Part shown: in pieces, positions 8,905 to 13,147 of the stretch
Numbering within the stretch: position 1 is the stretch's first letter
Layout of the letters: every line of letters begins with the position of its first letter
IMG/VR virus record: IMGVR_UViG_3300044678_002325
Location: 14,751 to 78,750 of that record
DNA: 64,000 nucleotides
Strand: one strand, 5' to 3'
Origin: a virus
Taxonomy: Duplodnaviria; Caudoviricetes
The notes under the pieces: model-generated
Databases searched by the model: none
What the model was told of the DNA's origin: nothing
Seen by the model: only the letters and a program-made list of their open reading frames with translations
Program-made: the position numbers and the translations under genes

Positions 8905-9017
8905 TCCCACAAAATTACAACCCTTTATTTTTATTTCCAAATGTTTTATCAAGTTTTTTTTAAAGTGGTCAAATTTAACCATTTTAAACTACACCATATT
9001 TATGATAAAATAGAATT

Positions 9018-9767
9018 ATGAAAATTATAATTAATGAATCCCAATATAAAACAATCCTTAAAGAATTTATGGGTTCAATTGAATCAAGTAAGTTTATGAA
9101 AATTTTTAAAAAATTTTTGGAGGATAAAAATATTGTTATACTTTATGATGATTTTAGAGAATTTACAATGCACACAAGTATAAAAATACCTAAAACAAAC
9201 TTTGATGATTATCTAACCATATTTTCAGAGATTGAAAAATTTATTGAAATTTATGGGTGGTTTATTTCAAGTTATTTAGTGATTTATAATCACCCTAATA
9301 CATCAATTTATGATGAAAAGGACATTAAATTCTTAGATTATAGAAAATTAGTTGATTGGCTAAAAACGAATGAGTCAAATATCCAACTAAAACATATAAT
9401 GTTAAATTTAGAAAAAAAATACACAGAACAAAATAAAGGCCATAATGTTTTTTACCACGTAACAGATAAGAAAAACACTGAAAAAATAATGACTTATGGA
9501 TTAAGACCTAGAAAATCACAAAATAAATATTTCAATTATTCTGATAGAATTTACCTAGCTGATTATGTCAAAGTAGCTTATTATATAAACGACCTTTTTA
9601 AAGATCCTAACGCCAAAACTGATTATGGTAAAGAAGGTGTTGTCGTATTTGAAATTACCTTACCTGATTCATTTAAAACTTATTTTGACCCAAAAGCACC
9701 ATTGTCATCCTATACCTTAGAACCAATACCACCTAAATATATAGAAATTTACGATTATCTAGATTAG
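9018..9767 (+). CDS. leader-family protein (type B) with C-terminal Tpt1/KptA-like ART-fold domain
   Basis: MKIIINESQY leader; FYHVT...IMTYGLRP...RIYLA...IPPKYI motifs. Confidence 0.65.
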   Translation: MKIIINESQYKTILKEFMGSIESSKFMKIFKKFLEDKNIVILYDDFREFTMHTSIKIPKTNFDDYLTIFSEIEKFIEIYGWFISSYLVIYNHPNTSIYDEKDIKFLDYRKLVDWLKTNESNIQLKHIMLNLEKKYTEQNKGHNVFYHVTDKKNTEKIMTYGLRPRKSQNKYFNYSDRIYLADYVKVAYYINDLFKDPNAKTDYGKEGVVVFEITLPDSFKTYFDPKAPLSSYTLEPIPPKYIEIYDYLD

Positions 9768-9770
9768 ATG

Positions 9771-9843
9771 TTCCCCCTGATGGAATTGAACCACCATCCT
9801 CAGAACCAAAATCTGATGTAATAAGCCTTTATACCAAGGAGGA
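9771..9843 (-). tRNA. tRNA-Gln(UUG)
   Basis: TCAGA-TTTTGGT-TCTGA arm. Confidence 0.88.
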
Positions 9844-9859
9844 TTATATTTTACCAACG

Positions 9860-9906
9860 ATGTCAAAGAACACAAAAAAACCCTGAACGTCTTTTGTCCA
9901 GGGTTT
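9860..9906 (-). terminator. intrinsic terminator / candidate attenuator followed by boxA-like GTTCTTTGACAT
   Basis: AAACCCTGGAC-loop-GTTCAGGGTTT plus U tract. Confidence 0.75.
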
Positions 9907-9934
9907 GTATAAAAAATTAATATTTTTTTTACCA

Positions 9935-10030
9935 TCACGAGATTCCACCTGAACCATAAGAATCCGCTGACCAACAATTTTTAAATTGCGGTTGCACTGA
10001 ATTACTAATATGGTTTATCGATGTTCTCAT
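9935..10030 (-). CDS. putative attenuator leader peptide (31 aa)
   Basis: MRTSINHISNSVQPQFKNCWSADSYGSGGIS*; GTTCAGG near the stop duplicates the terminator 3' arm; TATTTATA upstream. Confidence 0.55.
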   Translation of the reverse strand: MRTSINHISNSVQPQFKNCWSADSYGSGGIS

Positions 10031-10077
10031 TTTTGTTATTTGTTTATAAATATCACTAAATTATTAAAAAGTTTGGT

Positions 10078-10130
10078 TCGGAATGATTTTTTAAGATATG
10101 CTGTCTTTTTTAAGTTGCTGAACTCATTCG
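10078..10130 (-). ncRNA. Y-RNA-like hairpin RNA C
   Basis: GAATGA-GTTCAGCAA...AAAAA-TCATTC-CGA. Confidence 0.5.
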
Positions 10131-10145
10131 TTATAACCTTAATTG

Positions 10146-10206
10146 TCAGGATAGTTTTTGTTCAATTTGACTAAATTTGATATTTTAATTTGCTGAATCT
10201 ATCCTT
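10146..10206 (-). ncRNA. Y-RNA-like hairpin RNA B
   Basis: GGATAG-ATTCAGCAA...AAAAA-CTATCC-TGA. Confidence 0.5.
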
Positions 10207-10260
10207 TGTTCTATATAACGTAAATTTAATTTAAAAGTTTCATTAAGTCAAGAAAAAATA

Positions 10261-10445
10261 GGAAAAATTGGTTTCAGAATGGGTTTTTGGTTAGTAATTT
10301 ATTCCCGTGCGATTAGGAAAGTGAGACTAACCCCCCTCCTTATCAGAGGGTGACAGGGTTTGAACCTGTCCTCGTATCCATTGTGATAGTAATTGATTTG
10401 TTGTGTTAACTTTGCAGTAATCATTCCTTTTAAACCAATTTTTCC
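10261..10445 (-). ncRNA. Y-RNA-like RNA A with a tRNA T-arm
   Basis: 14-bp terminal stem GGAAAAATTGGTTT/AAACCAATTTTTCC; GAATGATTACTGCAA...CCATTCTGA; internal GACAG-GTTCAAACC-CTGTC. Confidence 0.6.
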
Positions 10446-10452
10446 ATTTTTT

Positions 10453-11859
10453 TTAAACTTCTATCATCTTGTATCTTTCGGACTCAATGGTTTCGGTCAT
10501 AATTAATATTGGTGATAGTTCTTTTCCACCAAGAATTGACTTCAAGATTGATGGACTAAAACCAGATATTAACGCTGTACCACTTTCATCAAAACGAACA
10601 GGGAAGTTATCTCCTCTCGATTGTATGTTCCAAAAGATAATACCAGGTAGTTGATATCCACTATTCTCATATTCTTCACGAATCATTTGAATTGCGGAAT
10701 TATTACGACCAGTTGCTTGATTAAATTCCATATCTGATAAGATAAGGATTTTAGTCGGCATCTCACTTTGAGGTACATTGTGTTTAATTGATTGGTTTAG
10801 AATCAATTTGAACACAGACTCCAAGTTTGTACTCATACCCCAATCGGCAGCACGTAGTTGTGTGTATCTATCATATAGATTACCACTCAACTTTTGTAAT
10901 TGTGGTCTCTCAGAGAATGTTATGAAAGAGTCTTTAAAAGAACCTTCATTTCTTTCTGAAATATACAATCCCAATGATACTGCAACATCCATACAAGTTA
11001 GATTATTGTTTTTTCCTGCAGAACCACTAACCATTGAACCTGATACATCAACTACTGGTAAAATTCTTTCAGTACTTCCTTCCATAAAGTTGGGGAGAGC
11101 TTTCCATTGTTCTATTGCCAAATCTTTGACACCTTGTTCCAAAGTTTTAACAACATCATATGGATATACAGCCCCAGCATTTACTTTGGTCTCACCTTTT
11201 TTCAATGATTCCAAGTATTCTCCAAAACCAGTTAAATTGTGTTTAGAGAATGCTTTGGTGTATCGAGCCATAGCCAAAGATGGTACTTTTGAGTATTCAA
11301 TATTTGTCCACTCGTTAGCACACATCTTTTGCTCGACCGTTTTGGAAAGAACAACCAAAGTTTTACGTAATGATTTTGGTGTAAGACCCATAACCTTCCT
11401 GATTGAGTTAAAAATAACTCCTTTTCTTGGCATCCACTTTGCACATAGTCCATTTTTGGCTTCTAAACCTTGTACTATTGTGTCAATCGCATCGTCATTC
11501 ACTTTTGTGTTGAATAGGACTGTAAGATCGTCCCAACGACCGAATTCAGGGATGAATTTAATATTCTTTGCCAATACTTTTGGGGCCACCTCTGCTAAGA
11601 GTTGGATTATATCACGGAATATTTGTCTTTCACCAGCACCACCACGAACATCTCTTGCCCAAAATAATATACGCAATGCAGTTTTAGGACTCTCAATGAA
11701 AGCCTTTGAGAATAGACTTAACAATCTTTCTTTGTCTTGTCCTCTCATTGCTCCAATGGTGAAGAATAGATTCACACACTCGTTAAGAGTTGATGAATTT
11801 GTAACCATACCATTTTCAGTTAAGGTATCTTCTGTCTGTAATGCGTCTAAGAAGTTCAT
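10453..11859 (-). CDS. DUF2828 / TROVE(Ro60)-like protein with C-terminal vWA domain
   Basis: RDVRGGAGERQ, PEFGRWDDL, AKWMPR motifs; DVSGSM MIDAS; ILSDMEF; IFWN. Confidence 0.85.
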   Translation of the reverse strand: MNFLDALQTEDTLTENGMVTNSSTLNECVNLFFTIGAMRGQDKERLLSLFSKAFIESPKTALRILFWARDVRGGAGERQIFRDIIQLLAEVAPKVLAKNIKFIPEFGRWDDLTVLFNTKVNDDAIDTIVQGLEAKNGLCAKWMPRKGVIFNSIRKVMGLTPKSLRKTLVVLSKTVEQKMCANEWTNIEYSKVPSLAMARYTKAFSKHNLTGFGEYLESLKKGETKVNAGAVYPYDVVKTLEQGVKDLAIEQWKALPNFMEGSTERILPVVDVSGSMVSGSAGKNNNLTCMDVAVSLGLYISERNEGSFKDSFITFSERPQLQKLSGNLYDRYTQLRAADWGMSTNLESVFKLILNQSIKHNVPQSEMPTKILILSDMEFNQATGRNNSAIQMIREEYENSGYQLPGIIFWNIQSRGDNFPVRFDESGTALISGFSPSILKSILGGKELSPILIMTETIESERYKMIEV

Positions 11860-11924
11860 AATATTCTGTTTTTGAATTTGTTTTGAAAGTATATGATTAA
11901 TACTTTGGTTTGTCAAGTGAAATT

Positions 11925-12116
11925 TTAAATATTTGTTTTAAATTTTTCATTCAAAATATCAAAAAGTTTATTGATATTGTCAATTTCTTTTTGATAAAAA
12001 TTTTTGACCTCCTCGTGTTGTGATTTGTTCATCTCATCAATAAAATGATTTCTTAACATCATAGAATGAGACGTTAATAATACAAATTCATCTTGGTTTA
12101 ACTTTAAATTTTTCAT
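11925..12116 (-). CDS. hypothetical protein
   Basis: 63 aa ORF overlapping upstream stop. Confidence 0.6.
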   Translation of the reverse strand: MKNLKLNQDEFVLLTSHSMMLRNHFIDEMNKSQHEEVKNFYQKEIDNINKLFDILNEKFKTNI

Positions 12117-12538: not shown

Positions 12539-13147
12539 TTAATCATAAAAATTAAGTTGTCTTTTACAATTGTTACAAAAAGTACCTGTTTCGTATTCAT
12601 CATTATTGATTGCCATAATACAACTCAAATTACTACAATGACTTAATCCTAAAGTATGACCAATTTCGTGAATTAATGTTTCTCTTAGGGTTGATTTATC
12701 GCCTTTAACAAATACAGTACCACCAGTTTTTGCAGCATATCCTTTAATGTGTATACCTTTAGCCCACATTCTCTTATCGAGAACATAAACAATTCTATCT
12801 TGAGAATAAAATTTATTTAGACAAGTTTCGGCATTAACTATATCACTACCTGAGATAAATAAATCACTAGTCAATTCAGTCTTACGACCAATGTAAGCTT
12901 TCCAACCATAAAAACTCTCAATAACATTAACAGCATCTGTCAAGTCACTATAATCAACATCACCTAAAGGTTTTACCAAAACAGTACATTTTGGAAAATA
13001 CATTTTCTCATTATGAGTACAAGTAGATTTGTGAGAACAATTATGGGTTTCCACATCAGTTTCACCTTGTGGAGTATAGTTTGGTTTACAACCAAAAATA
13101 AAAGATACAACAATAAGTACGATTGAAAGTTTGATAGAGTTTTTCAT
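12539..13147 (-). CDS. archaemetzincin-like zinc metalloprotease (lipoprotein)
   Basis: HEIGHTLGLSHC..CIM...FCNNC; N-terminal lipobox. Confidence 0.85.
   Translation of the reverse strand: MKNSIKLSIVLIVVSFIFGCKPNYTPQGETDVETHNCSHKSTCTHNEKMYFPKCTVLVKPLGDVDYSDLTDAVNVIESFYGWKAYIGRKTELTSDLFISGSDIVNAETCLNKFYSQDRIVYVLDKRMWAKGIHIKGYAAKTGGTVFVKGDKSTLRETLIHEIGHTLGLSHCSNLSCIMAINNDEYETGTFCNNCKRQLNFYD

What the first reader, a model, noticed from the sequence alone, without database searches (positions are those of the whole stretch)
9860..10055. Leader-peptide attenuator at the head of the tRNA array
Seen (minus strand): TATTTATA, then a 31-codon ORF (10030-9935), then terminator AAACCCTGGAC/GTTCAGGGTTT-U7, then boxA-like GTTCTTTGACAT, then tRNA-Gln and the downstream tRNAs. 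GTTCAGG (9948-9954), about 10 nt before the ORF stop, is identical to the terminator 3' arm and could sequester the 5' arm. No promoter motif is visible between the terminator and tRNA-Gln. Inference: a ribosome reaching the stop would hide the antiterminator and keep tRNA transcription off, while stalling or no translation (host tRNA cleavage, starvation) would allow read-through. The peptide has diverse codons rather than one amino acid, as expected for a general translation sensor. I do not know of such control described for phage tRNA arrays.
Basis: partly seen in the sequence, partly recalled or inferred. Interest (0 to 1): 0.85.

Follow-up and report, generated by a model that had tools for sequence, protein, structure and literature searches.

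The report
Codon-matched leader before phage tRNA genes
A short translated reading frame followed by a transcription stop signal sits in front of a large phage's tRNA genes and uses just the amino acids whose tRNAs lie behind it, which suggests that the phage gauges the cell's decoding capacity and lets its tRNA genes be transcribed when that capacity runs short.

Summary
On the minus strand lie a 31-codon ORF (10030..9935), a strong intrinsic terminator (9906..9878, seven T), an rRNA-leader-type boxA (9871..9861) and tRNA-Gln (9843..9770). The ORF is kept in 19 of 19 distinct relatives. It shows purifying selection and in-frame indels, so it is translated. No promoter consensus lies between terminator and tRNA-Gln. 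The later tRNAs have host-type (Bacteroidota) promoters of their own.

The new point is that the first 20 codons cover all 13 amino-acid identities of the tRNA unit behind them (about 2 in 100,000 by simulation). A second small ORF (2039..1968), with its own terminator and boxA, covers all 9 identities of the second unit. Unrelated leader ORFs in other phage groups show the same match. Each ORF carries, near its 3' end, a stretch complementary to the terminator's 5' arm. This is weak in single cases (window 137 of 1000 shuffles) but gives p = 0.0045 over six families.

Best reading (0.6): a ribosome-mediated attenuator that senses the supply of the tRNAs it controls, followed by Nus-type antitermination. 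Nothing has been tested at the bench. I found no description of such control in print.

The parts
10221..10251 (-). Host-type promoter-like site (3-base -33 box, 20-base spacer, -7 box with one departure) at the head of a conserved 5' leader
   Evidence: loose pattern at -408 from tRNA-Gln in the window, L001, L002, L007, L009. It lies in a nearly invariant block of the alignment. It is absent in the L089 lineage.
10053..10220 (-). Conserved untranslated leader, present only where the DUF2828 gene lies upstream
   Evidence: alignment. RNA-library contigs cover 10014..10167. Missing in L089-L091, which keep the ORF module.
10045..10052 (-). Recurrent phage promoter-like 8-base motif, 14 nt before the ORF start
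   Evidence: 41 copies in the window. By my count from that listing, 29 of them have an ATG ORF of 80 aa or more starting within about 50 nt downstream on the same strand, several directly after the previous gene's terminator. No control was computed. A looser 15-base form occurs 80 times against 49.6 expected.
9935..10030 (-). Leader ORF 1: 31 codons plus stop. Codons 1-20 are the proposed sensor part.
9970..9992 (-). Conserved hairpin inside the ORF (codons 13-21)
   Evidence: 9 pairs. The one pair that varies with all cells still paired goes from G-U to A-U (5 sequences) or G-C (2 sequences), through synonymous changes. The outermost pair also varies and is broken in 3 sequences.
9948..9956 (-). 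Candidate antiterminator strand (a copy of the start of the terminator's 3' arm)
   Evidence: 91.7% of 168 cells can pair with the terminator's 5' arm. No compensatory change was seen.
9874..9906 (-). Intrinsic terminator: hairpin 9906..9878 and a run of seven T at 9880..9874
   Evidence: 209 of 209 cells paired; 5 of 11 pairs change on one side only, always to G-U. An RNA-library contig ends at 9874.
9861..9871 (-). boxA-like element 1 (part of a 17-base stretch that is nearly invariant in the clade; 3 of 19 sequences carry one base change, besides the two positions that vary between lineages)
9770..9843 (-). tRNA-Gln(UUG), first gene of tRNA unit 1
8910..8941 (-). Strict host-type promoter pattern before tRNA-Phe. 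Further ones lie at 7035..7004, 6518..6488 and 1248..1217.
1968..2039 (-). Leader ORF 2: 23 codons plus stop, matched to tRNA unit 2
1911..1940 (-). Intrinsic terminator after leader ORF 2
1866..1897 (-). Strict host-type promoter pattern between terminator 2 and boxA 2
1851..1861 (-). boxA-like element 2, 17 nt before tRNA-Asp (1833..1759)

Best explanation
The finding is the control region of a tRNA transcription unit of a large, AT-rich freshwater phage whose host uses Bacteroidota-type signals.

Transcripts start at a host-type promoter near 10251..10221, and probably also at the phage motif at 10052..10045. They carry a 31-codon ORF that is translated. Its first 20 codons hold at least one codon for each amino acid whose tRNA is encoded in the unit behind it. 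So the speed at which a ribosome crosses them reports whether any of those tRNAs is short.

- If the ribosome lags, the 3' part of the ORF (9956..9948), a copy of the terminator's 3' arm, is free to pair with the 5' arm as that arm emerges. The terminator then fails and RNA polymerase reads on.
- If the ribosome runs through to the stop codon, that strand is covered or unwound. The hairpin and U-run at 9906..9874 form and the transcript ends.
- Polymerase that reads through then transcribes boxA (9871..9861). There it is expected to pick up NusB/S10 and the other Nus factors, as on rRNA operons, and to go on through tRNA-Gln and beyond.

A second unit in the same phage (2039..1759) and units in other phages are built on the same plan.

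Shown here: the parts, their conservation, coding selection on the ORF, the match between codon set and tRNA set, the likeness to boxA, and the lack of a promoter consensus in the gap. Inferred: translation control of termination, its direction, and Nus loading.
For: (1) The ORF is coding.
- pN is below pS in 15 of 15 lineage pairs over codons 1-20.
- There is no stop in frame in 11 of 11 sequences, against 1-5 in the other frames.
- Indels are in frame: 6 nt and 3 nt.

(2) The module is linked. ORF, terminator, boxA and tRNA-Gln are kept in 19 of 19 distinct sequences. This includes the L089 lineage, where the upstream gene and the long leader are different.

(3) Codon set equals tRNA set.
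- Unit 1 (the tRNAs between the two boxA elements) has 13 identities. Codons 1-20 cover 13 of 13 in the window and three other lineages, and 12 of 13 in two lineages. 19 or 20 of the 20 residues lie in the set.
- Null for full coverage of the 12 non-Met identities: 0 of 15,092 real 19-mers, 34 of 2,000,000 simulated, and 1 of 232 small ORFs, which is the leader itself.
- Leader 2 holds a run of 12 residues all in the unit-2 set, covering 9 of 9. Null: 9 of 3,000,000 simulated, 0 of 18,426 real 12-mers, and 1 of 331 small ORFs, itself.
- I inferred a tRNA-Thr from leader 2 and then found it outside the window.
- The two leaders are specific. Leader 1's longest run within set 2 is 3 residues; leader 2's longest run within set 1 is 5.

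(4) Independent families.
- In a second phage group the leader core uses only six amino acids, and these are the six identities of the array. In the six-frame translation of 9 loci, the 9 runs of 13 or more number one per locus and match the leaders' own run lengths; the next longest run is 10.
- L314 has three successive units, each with its own matched leader.
- A blind scan of all viral loci held gave 25 distinct candidates, 10 of them with p at or below 0.0021.
- Divergent homologues (L325, L154) change residue order but largely keep the set. I read this by eye.

(5) There is no room for a promoter, or no promoter consensus, between terminator and first tRNA. None was found in 8 of 8 sequences. 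The U-run ends only about 10-18 nt before the tRNA in L314 (two units) and L153.

(6) Antiterminator.
- With codons 1-20 masked, the 5' arm pairs with the ORF segment in 9 of 9 sequences.
- In group 2 the segment at the same codons changes together with three different terminator arms.
- Fisher p = 0.0045 over six families.
- The gap from stop codon to terminator arm is 22-33 nt in all 16 cases.

(7) boxA.
- It is identical at 10 of 12 positions with each of the E. coli and B. subtilis consensus printed in PMC13753749, and at 10 of 11 with the consensus in PMC5725501.
- Its first 9 bases occur 77-210 nt before 16S rRNA in 12 of 23 Bacteroidota loci.
- The only 2 exact copies on the tRNA strand of the contig both lie 10-17 nt before a tRNA.

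(8) One RNA-library contig spans 10086..9874 and ends on the last T of the U-run. This is a weak hint from one study.
Against: - No experiment or read-level RNA data were available. The RNA evidence is one assembled contig, and DNA carry-over cannot be excluded.
- The antiterminator in this clade has no compensatory change. As a single case it is not significant (137 of 1000).
- With the upstream part shuffled, the 5' arm still finds a partner in 61-123 of 200 trials.
- In naked partial transcripts the pairing forms in only 4 of 11 sequences, and not in the window's.
- In two lineages the segment ends 16 nt before the stop, and in group 2 it ends 19-37 nt before it. A terminating ribosome would hardly cover it there.
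- The invariant peptide core coincides with a conserved RNA hairpin, so part of the 'peptide' conservation may be RNA conservation.
- Set 1 makes up 57% of residues in this phage. I chose the unit borders and the 20-codon cut after looking at the data. I also dropped the odd 95-nt tRNA-like gene from unit 1; counted as Asp, it would make coverage 13 of 14.
- At codon level, 2 of the first 20 codons (both UCN Ser) have no cognate tRNA in the contig, and 1 (ATA) depends on an unproven lysidine tRNA. This is read by eye.
- Set and leader do not co-vary perfectly between lineages. L089 has tRNA-Arg but no Arg codon in its leader. In L325, 4 of the first 20 residues fall outside the set.
- Downstream tRNAs have their own promoters. 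Unit 2 has a strict promoter after its terminator. In relatives about 500 nt lie between that promoter and tRNA-Asp.
- In the blind scan the leader-1 variants in short loci, and L126, L153 and L154, were not significant (p 0.02-0.76).
Confidence: 0.6

Rival explanations
1. The small ORFs are ordinary small phage genes with their own terminators. The tRNA units are made by constant leak through those terminators, or from promoters that fit no consensus I scanned. Translation does not set the level of read-through.
For: - The ORF has a promoter-like motif shared with many phage genes and a strong terminator.
- The RNA contig ends at the terminator.
- The antiterminator is statistically weak in single cases.
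- Other tRNAs of the array have their own promoters.
- Phage-specific promoters were not modelled beyond one motif.
Against: - It does not explain why five or more unrelated small ORFs each use the amino acids of the tRNAs behind them.
- It does not explain why substitutions between lineages are chemically unlike yet stay in the set.
- Leader 1 has no Pfam family and no relative in GenBank phages.
- The U-run lies 10-18 nt from the first tRNA in three units.
Confidence: 0.2
2. Translation of the leader matters, but with another logic. It might promote read-through: a ribosome close behind the polymerase, or one opening the ORF hairpin, would make phage tRNA synthesis self-reinforcing. Or it might act on stability or processing of the precursor rather than on termination.
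For: - In the window's naked RNA the terminator forms and the candidate strand is locked in a hairpin inside the ORF, so some ribosome action is needed to change anything.
- A conserved hairpin sits exactly in the sensor part.
- The constant 22-33 nt gap between stop and terminator is not explained by the simple masking model.
Against: - The stop codon lies too far (22-33 nt) from the hairpin for a terminating ribosome to block it directly.
- Positive feedback gives no reason for one codon of each kind.
- The ORF copy of the 3' arm fits competition for the 5' arm.
Confidence: 0.1
3. The 17-base element at 9871..9855 is a DNA promoter (a -35-like hexamer is in it) or a processing signal, not boxA. 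tRNA-Gln then has its own start, and the terminator simply ends the unit upstream.
For: - It contains a perfect sigma-70 -35 hexamer and -10-like hexamers downstream.
- It is nearly invariant in the clade.
- It recurs 5-11 nt before first tRNAs in other phages.
- In one bacterial assembly it is part of a repeated element unrelated to rRNA.
Against: - The spacing to the -10-like hexamers is 7 or 12-13 nt, not 16-18. A start site would fall inside the tRNA.
- The host-type promoters of this phage are of the Bacteroidota two-box kind.
- The element matches rRNA-leader boxA.
- It occurs between two tRNAs inside an array (L153, L155), as boxA does in rRNA spacers (that comparison is recalled, not from a call).
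Confidence: 0.05
4. The stretch is a non-coding small RNA with a terminator, and the ORF is accidental.
For: The region folds far better than shuffles (z -5.2). It holds a conserved hairpin. It appears in RNA libraries.
Against: The frame is open in all relatives, pN is below pS, third positions vary most, and indels are in frame. The codon-set match also argues against it.
Confidence: 0.03

Closest known systems
Leader-peptide (ribosome-mediated) transcription attenuators of amino-acid operons (trp, his, phe, leu, thr type)
   Same: A short translated ORF, an intrinsic terminator just before the controlled genes, no promoter in between, codons in the ORF that report the supply of charged tRNA, and a strand in or after the ORF that can compete for the terminator's 5' arm.
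   Different: - The controlled genes are tRNA genes, not biosynthetic enzymes.
- The sensor is not a run of one codon but about one codon for each of 6 to 13 different tRNA species, matched to the unit behind it.
- The element belongs to a phage.
- A boxA follows the terminator.
- The alternative pairing is shorter and unproven.
boxA / Nus-factor antitermination of rRNA operons (also reported before suhB and CRISPR arrays: PMC5725501, PMC13753749, passages read)
   Same: An 11-12 base RNA element with the conserved core, placed in the leader before long structured untranslated RNA genes. The same 9-base core lies before 16S rRNA in Bacteroidota.
   Different: - It stands before phage tRNA genes.
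- It directly abuts a terminator's U-run.
- It is a 17-base stretch shared by several phage groups.
- Binding of NusB/S10 was not tested.
T-box riboswitches
   Same: They sense tRNA supply to decide between terminator and antiterminator.
   Different: T-boxes bind uncharged tRNA directly, need no translation, and control synthetase and amino-acid genes. No T-box or other Rfam family matched here.
Phage tRNA genes as counter-measures to tRNA-cleaving defences (PMC10264068, PMC11464382; search listings and abstract starts only)
   Same: They give a reason why a phage would want tRNA output coupled to loss of decoding capacity.
   Different: Nothing in the titles and abstract starts I saw concerns control of phage tRNA transcription; I did not read the papers.

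Membership tests
Ribosome-mediated (leader-peptide) transcription attenuator | Short ORF in the leader that is translated | tested here: met
   Indirect only. pN is below pS in 15 of 15 pairs. There are 0 in-frame stops in 11 of 11 sequences. Indels are in frame. No ribosome data.
Ribosome-mediated (leader-peptide) transcription attenuator | Codons in the ORF correspond to the tRNA or amino acid that the regulated genes supply | tested here: met
   Leader 1 covers 13 of 13 identities of unit 1. Leader 2 covers 9 of 9 of unit 2. Other families. At codon level, 17 of 20 codons are readable by tRNAs of the contig (by eye).
Ribosome-mediated (leader-peptide) transcription attenuator | Intrinsic terminator between the ORF and the regulated genes, with no promoter after it | tested here: met
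   Terminator. No strict or loose host-type promoter pattern between ORF and tRNA-Gln in 8 of 8 sequences. Only consensus patterns were scanned.
Ribosome-mediated (leader-peptide) transcription attenuator | Mutually exclusive antiterminator pairing, supported by covariation | tested here: inconclusive
   91.7% of cells can pair, but there is no two-sided change. Single-case shuffles give 137 of 1000. Group 2 changes in step with three arm classes. Fisher p = 0.0045 over six families.
Ribosome-mediated (leader-peptide) transcription attenuator | Read-through responds to translation of the leader | not testable with these tools
   Needs Term-seq, reporters or in vitro coupled assays.
boxA (Nus-factor loading site) | Sequence matches the boxA of the host group's rRNA leaders | tested here: met
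   The 9-base core lies 77-210 nt before 16S in 12 of 23 Bacteroidota loci. It matches 10 of 12 and 10 of 11 positions of the printed consensus. The host itself is not known.
boxA (Nus-factor loading site) | Lies on the transcript upstream of the RNA genes it serves | tested here: met
   By position only: 10 and 17 nt before the first tRNA of each unit. The transcript itself was not mapped.
boxA (Nus-factor loading site) | Binds NusB/S10 and makes polymerase resistant to termination | not testable with these tools
   None.
Any described RNA family (Rfam 15) | Match at or above the gathering score | tested here: not met
   In 9000..12000 only tRNA passed. The best other match was an enterobacterial leader at 22.5 bits against a cut-off of 50, and it rests on the terminator alone.

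The most novel reading that the evidence does not exclude
Large phages gate each of their tRNA transcription units with a miniature 'test track'. This is a leader ORF holding about one codon for every tRNA species encoded behind it, so that a shortage of any one of them (from codon demand, host shut-off or tRNA-cleaving defence) stalls the ribosome, defeats the terminator and switches on exactly the matching set of phage tRNAs. Polymerase is then made processive by a borrowed rRNA-type boxA. This would be a multi-tRNA, self-matching form of attenuation, found in several unrelated leader families.
Probability: 0.5. Interest if true: 0.92.

Novelty: new variant of a known kind. Interest (0 to 1): 0.85.

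Why it matters
Why phages carry tRNA genes has been argued for decades. Recent work ties them to tRNA-cleaving host defences (PMC10264068 and PMC11464382; I saw only search listings and abstract starts). How a phage decides when to make these tRNAs is hardly known.

If the reading is right, phages measure decoding capacity codon by codon and answer with the matching tRNAs. That would be:
- a new use of one of the oldest known regulatory designs;
- the first case I know of (from recall and the searches named below) in which leader-peptide attenuation controls tRNA genes;
- a sensor that covers many amino acids at once.

It also gives a simple, testable rule: the leader's amino-acid set equals the unit's tRNA set. 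That rule can be used to annotate transcription units in uncultured phage genomes. It points as well to boxA-type antitermination as a phage tool for transcribing long arrays of structured RNA.

Tried and rejected
- **Y-RNA idea.** The upstream gene (11916..10453) is DUF2828/DUF7788, which I recalled as akin to Ro-type RNA-binding proteins. No Rfam family matched in 9000..12000, and the ORF is coding. I dropped the idea.

- **Sigma-70 promoter reading of the element at 9871..9855.** Rejected on spacing.

- **Reading the 17-base element as a repeated phage-polymerase promoter.** There is only one full copy in the window.

- **Scan of viral contigs with the 17-mer.** Most are chance hits inside coding sequence. 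14 are our clade, and about 6 (L125, L153, L155, L161, L193, L200) are other tRNA-array heads.

- **Scan of bacterial genomes with the 18-mer.** It gave 28 loci, a mix of chance hits and Bacteroidota non-coding sites. No rRNA lay in the 15 loci scanned. One assembly holds 10 copies inside a repeated element of unknown nature. I therefore tested boxA directly on 16S loci.

- **Partial-transcript folds as a test of the antiterminator.** The shuffle control shows that such pairing is common by chance.

- **RNA libraries.** No RNA-library contig covers tRNA-Gln or 9873..8962. This is no evidence either way.

- **Searches in GenBank phages.** A blastn search found only a tRNA-Gln likeness. tblastn with two leaders found nothing.

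- **Literature searches.** Searches found no paper on leader ORFs or boxA before phage tRNA arrays. I saw listings and abstract starts only, except for passages of PMC5725501, PMC13753749 and PMC7641319. Supplements were not available and subscription journals are not covered.

- **The all-20-amino-acid leader of L153.** It is only mildly unusual (15,897 of 1,000,000).

Full report
**What is there.** On the minus strand the window holds, in this order:
- an ATG ORF of 31 codons (10030..9935);
- a 28-nt AT-rich spacer;
- a hairpin of 11 pairs with a 7-base loop (9906..9878), running into seven T (9880..9874) (-16.2 kcal/mol, z -4.1);
- two bases later, an 11-base boxA-like element (9871..9861);
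- ten bases later, tRNA-Gln(UUG) (9843..9770).

The 7 bases at 9954..9948 repeat the start of the terminator's 3' arm.

**Setting.** The window is part of a 78.7-kb viral record rated 27% complete, with about 29% G+C. Its relatives are contigs of up to 360 kb, so this is a large phage. DNA runs that hold the stretch are labelled lake or fresh water.

The contig carries 26 tRNA genes on one strand. The gene upstream of the finding is DUF2828/DUF7788.

The two-box promoter pattern of Bacteroidota occurs 10 times in the window against 4.3 expected, and 0 of 100 shuffles reach 10. Its -7 box consensus is printed in PMC7641319 (passages). Half of these sites lie in the tRNA region on the tRNA strand. 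Start codons are preceded by A-rich sequence without a Shine-Dalgarno-like stretch in the examples printed. I infer a Bacteroidota-like host, which is not shown.

**The ORF is translated.** Relatives were found through the neighbouring protein, through the peptide (viral contigs, metagenome contigs) and through the boxA stretch.
- There are 19 distinct module sequences in about six lineages. All 19 keep ORF, terminator, boxA-like element and tRNA-Gln.
- The ORF has 30 to 35 codons.
- The frame has no stop in 11 of 11 sequences, while the other frames have 1-5.
- Over codons 1-20, pN is below pS in 15 of 15 lineage pairs, and third positions change most.
- One lineage has a 6-nt in-frame insertion and one contig a 3-nt in-frame deletion.
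- In the L089 lineage the upstream gene is different and the long conserved 5' leader is missing, yet the module from the 8-base motif to tRNA-Gln is intact.

**Terminator and RNA.** In the 19-sequence alignment all 209 cells of the terminator helix pair. Five of 11 pairs change on one side only, always to G-U. There is no two-sided change.

Four metatranscriptome runs hold parts of the stretch as assembled contigs.
- One contig of 213 nt lies exactly on 10086..9874, so it ends on the last T of the U-run.
- Two others cover 10014/10020..10165/10167.
- Contigs cannot prove transcript ends, and DNA may be present in such libraries. This is a weak hint that most transcripts stop at the terminator and that transcription begins upstream of the 8-base motif.

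**boxA.** The element with its preceding base agrees at 10 of 12 positions with each of the E. coli and the B. subtilis rRNA-leader consensus printed in PMC13753749. It agrees at 10 of 11 positions with the gamma-proteobacterial consensus in PMC5725501.

In a sample of the phylum of one Bacteroidota assembly, its first 9 bases stand 77-210 nt before the 16S gene in 12 of 23 16S loci; 5 of those loci had under 400 nt of upstream sequence.

In the window the 11-base pattern with up to one mismatch is not enriched (10 against 13.3). But the only two exact copies on the tRNA strand of the whole contig lie 10 and 17 nt before a tRNA. A third exact copy on the other strand, outside the window, was not examined.

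The same 17-base stretch stands 5-11 nt before the first tRNA of arrays in other phage groups (L161, L200). It also stands between two tRNAs inside an array (L153, L155). In L125 and L193 ARAGORN's first tRNA lies some 80-90 nt further on.

**Where promoters are and are not.** A strict two-box site lies between tRNA-Gln and the next tRNA in 7 of 8 sequences examined, and more such sites precede later tRNAs. Neither a strict nor a loose site lies between the ORF and tRNA-Gln in any of the 8.

The U-run abuts boxA, so if boxA acts on RNA the polymerase must have come through the terminator.

The idea that the element keeps the whole array off does not. It can gate tRNA-Gln and whatever a boxA-modified polymerase goes on to read.

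In this window a + strand ORF (9018..9767), seen only here and probably in L293, separates tRNA-Gln from the rest.

**The codon-set match (the main new result).** A second boxA-like element (1861..1851) divides the array into two units.
- Unit 1 holds tRNAs for Arg, Asn, Cys, Gln, His, Ile, Lys, Met, Phe, Pro, Ser, Trp and Val. I left out an odd 95-nt tRNA-like gene at 6558..6652.
- Unit 2 holds tRNAs for Ala, Arg, Asp, Glu, Gly, Leu, Met, Thr and Tyr, plus one gene that ARAGORN could not name and which is not counted.

*Leader 1.* Its first 20 codons cover 13 of 13 identities of unit 1 in the window and three other lineages, and 12 of 13 in two lineages. 19 or 20 of the 20 residues are in the set.

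Full coverage of the 12 non-Met members was seen in:
- 0 of 15,092 real 19-residue windows of the phage's long ORFs;
- 34 of 2,000,000 simulated windows;
- 1 of 232 small ORFs, the leader itself.

Substitutions between lineages are often chemically unlike but stay in the set.

*Leader 2.* Before unit 2 lies another small ORF (2039..1968) with its own terminator (1940..1911), a strict promoter site (1897..1866) and boxA. It contains a run of 12 residues, all in the unit-2 set and covering 9 of 9.

A run of that kind was seen in:
- 9 of 3,000,000 simulated 12-mers;
- 0 of 18,426 real 12-mers;
- 1 of 331 small ORFs, itself.

Its Thr codons led me to expect a tRNA-Thr, which turned out to lie just outside the window.

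*Specificity.* Each leader fits its own unit and not the other: the longest runs in the wrong set are 3 and 5 residues.

*Codon level.* By eye, 17 of the first 20 codons of leader 1 can be read by tRNAs of the contig under standard wobble. One (ATA) needs a lysidine-type tRNA. Two UCN Ser codons have no cognate tRNA in the contig.

**Other phages.** In a second group (L125, L193, L161/L311, L200/L312, L313-L320) an unrelated leader of 29-36 codons is followed by a terminator, about 40 nt, the same boxA stretch and an array of Pro, Gln, Tyr, Thr, Gly and Lys tRNAs. Its core uses only those six amino acids.

In the six-frame translation of 9 loci (180,062 residues) there are 9 runs of 13 or more such residues, one per locus and of the leaders' own run lengths. 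The next longest run is 10.

L314 shows three successive units, each with its own leader:
- one before Cys, Val, Leu, Met, Val, Leu, Leu. By my count 14 of its 26 residues are in that set, against a background of about 0.17; no formal test was run;
- one before Phe, Glu, Glu, Asp, Ala, with a run of 13 and the background share to that power equal to 1.8e-8;
- the group-2 leader.

I also ran a blind scan of all viral loci held for a small ORF, then a terminator, then the head of a tRNA unit. It gave 25 distinct ORFs:
- 13 leader-1 variants;
- 8 group-2 variants;
- the second L314 leader;
- a divergent leader 2 (L154);
- L126 and L153.

Ten have p at or below 0.0021. The leader-1 variants in loci that hold only 1-9 tRNAs, and L126, L153 and L154, are not significant (0.02-0.76).

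Two divergent homologues (L325 for leader 1, L154 for leader 2) have a different residue order. L154 keeps a 13-residue run in set 2, and L325 covers all 11 identities of its unit, though 4 of its first 20 residues fall outside the set (by eye).

**The alternative pairing.**

*For:*
- With codons 1-20 masked, the minimum-energy fold of the nascent RNA pairs the terminator's 5' arm with the ORF strand in 9 of 9 sequences, at energies close to the terminator's.
- 91.7% of 168 cells of that helix can pair, against 64% and 56% when slid by one column.
- In group 2 the ORF segment at the same codons (21-24) changes with three different terminator arms. Mean complementarity is 6.1 within class and 4.1 between classes.
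- In L314 one leader contains an exact 8-base copy of its terminator's 3' arm.
- Over six families, taking the first member met of each, Fisher's p is 0.0045.

*Against:*
- There is no two-sided covariation in the window's clade.
- Single cases are weak: the window's leader 1 gives 137 of 1000 and leader 2 gives 90 of 1000.
- Shuffled upstream sequence pairs with the arm in 61-123 of 200 trials.
- In naked partial transcripts the pairing forms in 4 of 11 sequences, and not in the window.
- The distance from the segment to the stop (2-37 nt) is too variable for simple masking by a terminating ribosome.

Two further points remain unexplained. A conserved hairpin inside the ORF (9992..9970) overlaps the invariant peptide core. 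The only synonymous changes in its stem turn a G-U pair into A-U or G-C. It may be a pause or timing element, and it means that part of the peptide's conservation may be RNA conservation. The gap from stop codon to terminator arm is 22-33 nt in all 16 cases, and I cannot explain that regularity.

**Most likely mechanism.** It works like a trp-type attenuator whose regulatory codons are spread over all the tRNA species of the unit. Slow decoding of the first 20 codons leaves the 3' strand of the ORF free to capture the terminator's 5' arm, so polymerase reads through. Fast decoding removes that strand and the terminator forms. Polymerase that reads through meets boxA and is expected to become termination-resistant.

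- Shown: the parts, conservation, coding selection, the set match, the boxA likeness and the promoter pattern map.
- Inferred: everything about dynamics.

I put 0.6 on translation-controlled termination of this kind.

**Comparison and novelty.** It works like leader-peptide attenuators. It meets their sequence-level criteria, except that the antiterminator is not proven. It differs in target (tRNA genes), in sensor design (many amino acids, matched to the unit), in owner (a phage) and in the boxA that follows. It matches no Rfam family.

My literature searches turned up no description of leader ORFs or boxA before phage tRNA arrays. I saw listings and abstract starts only, apart from the three papers read in passages. 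Supplements were closed and subscription journals are not covered. I file it as a new variant of a known kind.

**Limits.**
- All statistics on the set match were designed after I had seen the pattern in one family. The second unit, the Thr inference, the second phage group, L314 and the blind scan serve as partial replications.
- Set 1 is large, at 57% of residues.
- Many relatives' loci are too short to show their whole arrays.
- No cultured relative was found.

Noticed in passing
window 6558..6652 (-): A 95-nt tRNA-like gene with a long variable arm and a D-arm that I recall as typical of tRNA-Leu. ARAGORN gives it the anticodon AUC (Asp codon GAU) and a mispaired anticodon stem. It may be a decoy, a recoding tRNA or a pseudogene.
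   Followed up: partly
window 10045..10052 and 40 other places: An 8-base AT-rich motif recurs 8-17 nt before the start codons of many phage genes, often right after the previous gene's terminator. It is probably a phage-specific (late?) promoter that gives very short 5' leaders.
   Followed up: partly
window 10453..11916 (-) and 10053..10332: A DUF2828/DUF7788 gene is followed by a 280-nt non-coding stretch kept at about 79% identity in relatives whose protein is 72-79% identical. The stretch holds further copies of the 6-base core of the terminator arms (near 10119..10112 and 10080..10073). These could add more alternative pairings. The L089 lineage lacks this stretch.
   Followed up: partly
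window 10330..10400 (-): An insertion present only in the window and its closest relatives holds a T-arm-like hairpin and a second G+C-rich hairpin. It gave no Rfam match.
   Followed up: no
window 9018..9767 (+): A 249-aa ORF with no Pfam family lies on the opposite strand between tRNA-Gln and tRNA-Phe. It is present only in this window and probably in L293. It may be a mobile insertion, and read-through transcripts from tRNA-Gln would be antisense to it.
   Followed up: no
L249, L252-L260 (one Bacteroidota assembly, handle G001): The boxA-like 18-mer occurs 10 times (up to 2 mismatches) inside a repeated element of about 200 nt with a conserved hairpin downstream. The backwards control gave 0. 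Its nature is unknown. It may be a family of boxA-led small transcripts or a mobile element.
   Followed up: partly
L314 1..7200: Three tRNA units lie in a row, each with its own matched leader ORF and terminator. In two of them the U-run ends 10-18 nt before the first tRNA and there is no boxA.
   Followed up: partly
window 12539..13147 (-): A 202-aa protein with an N-terminal signal-like segment and a weak match to archaemetzincin-type zinc peptidases (Peptidase_M54, E 4.6e-10).
   Followed up: no
contig position 9446 (+), outside the window: A third exact match to the 11-base boxA pattern lies on the strand opposite to the tRNAs. Its context was not examined.
   Followed up: no
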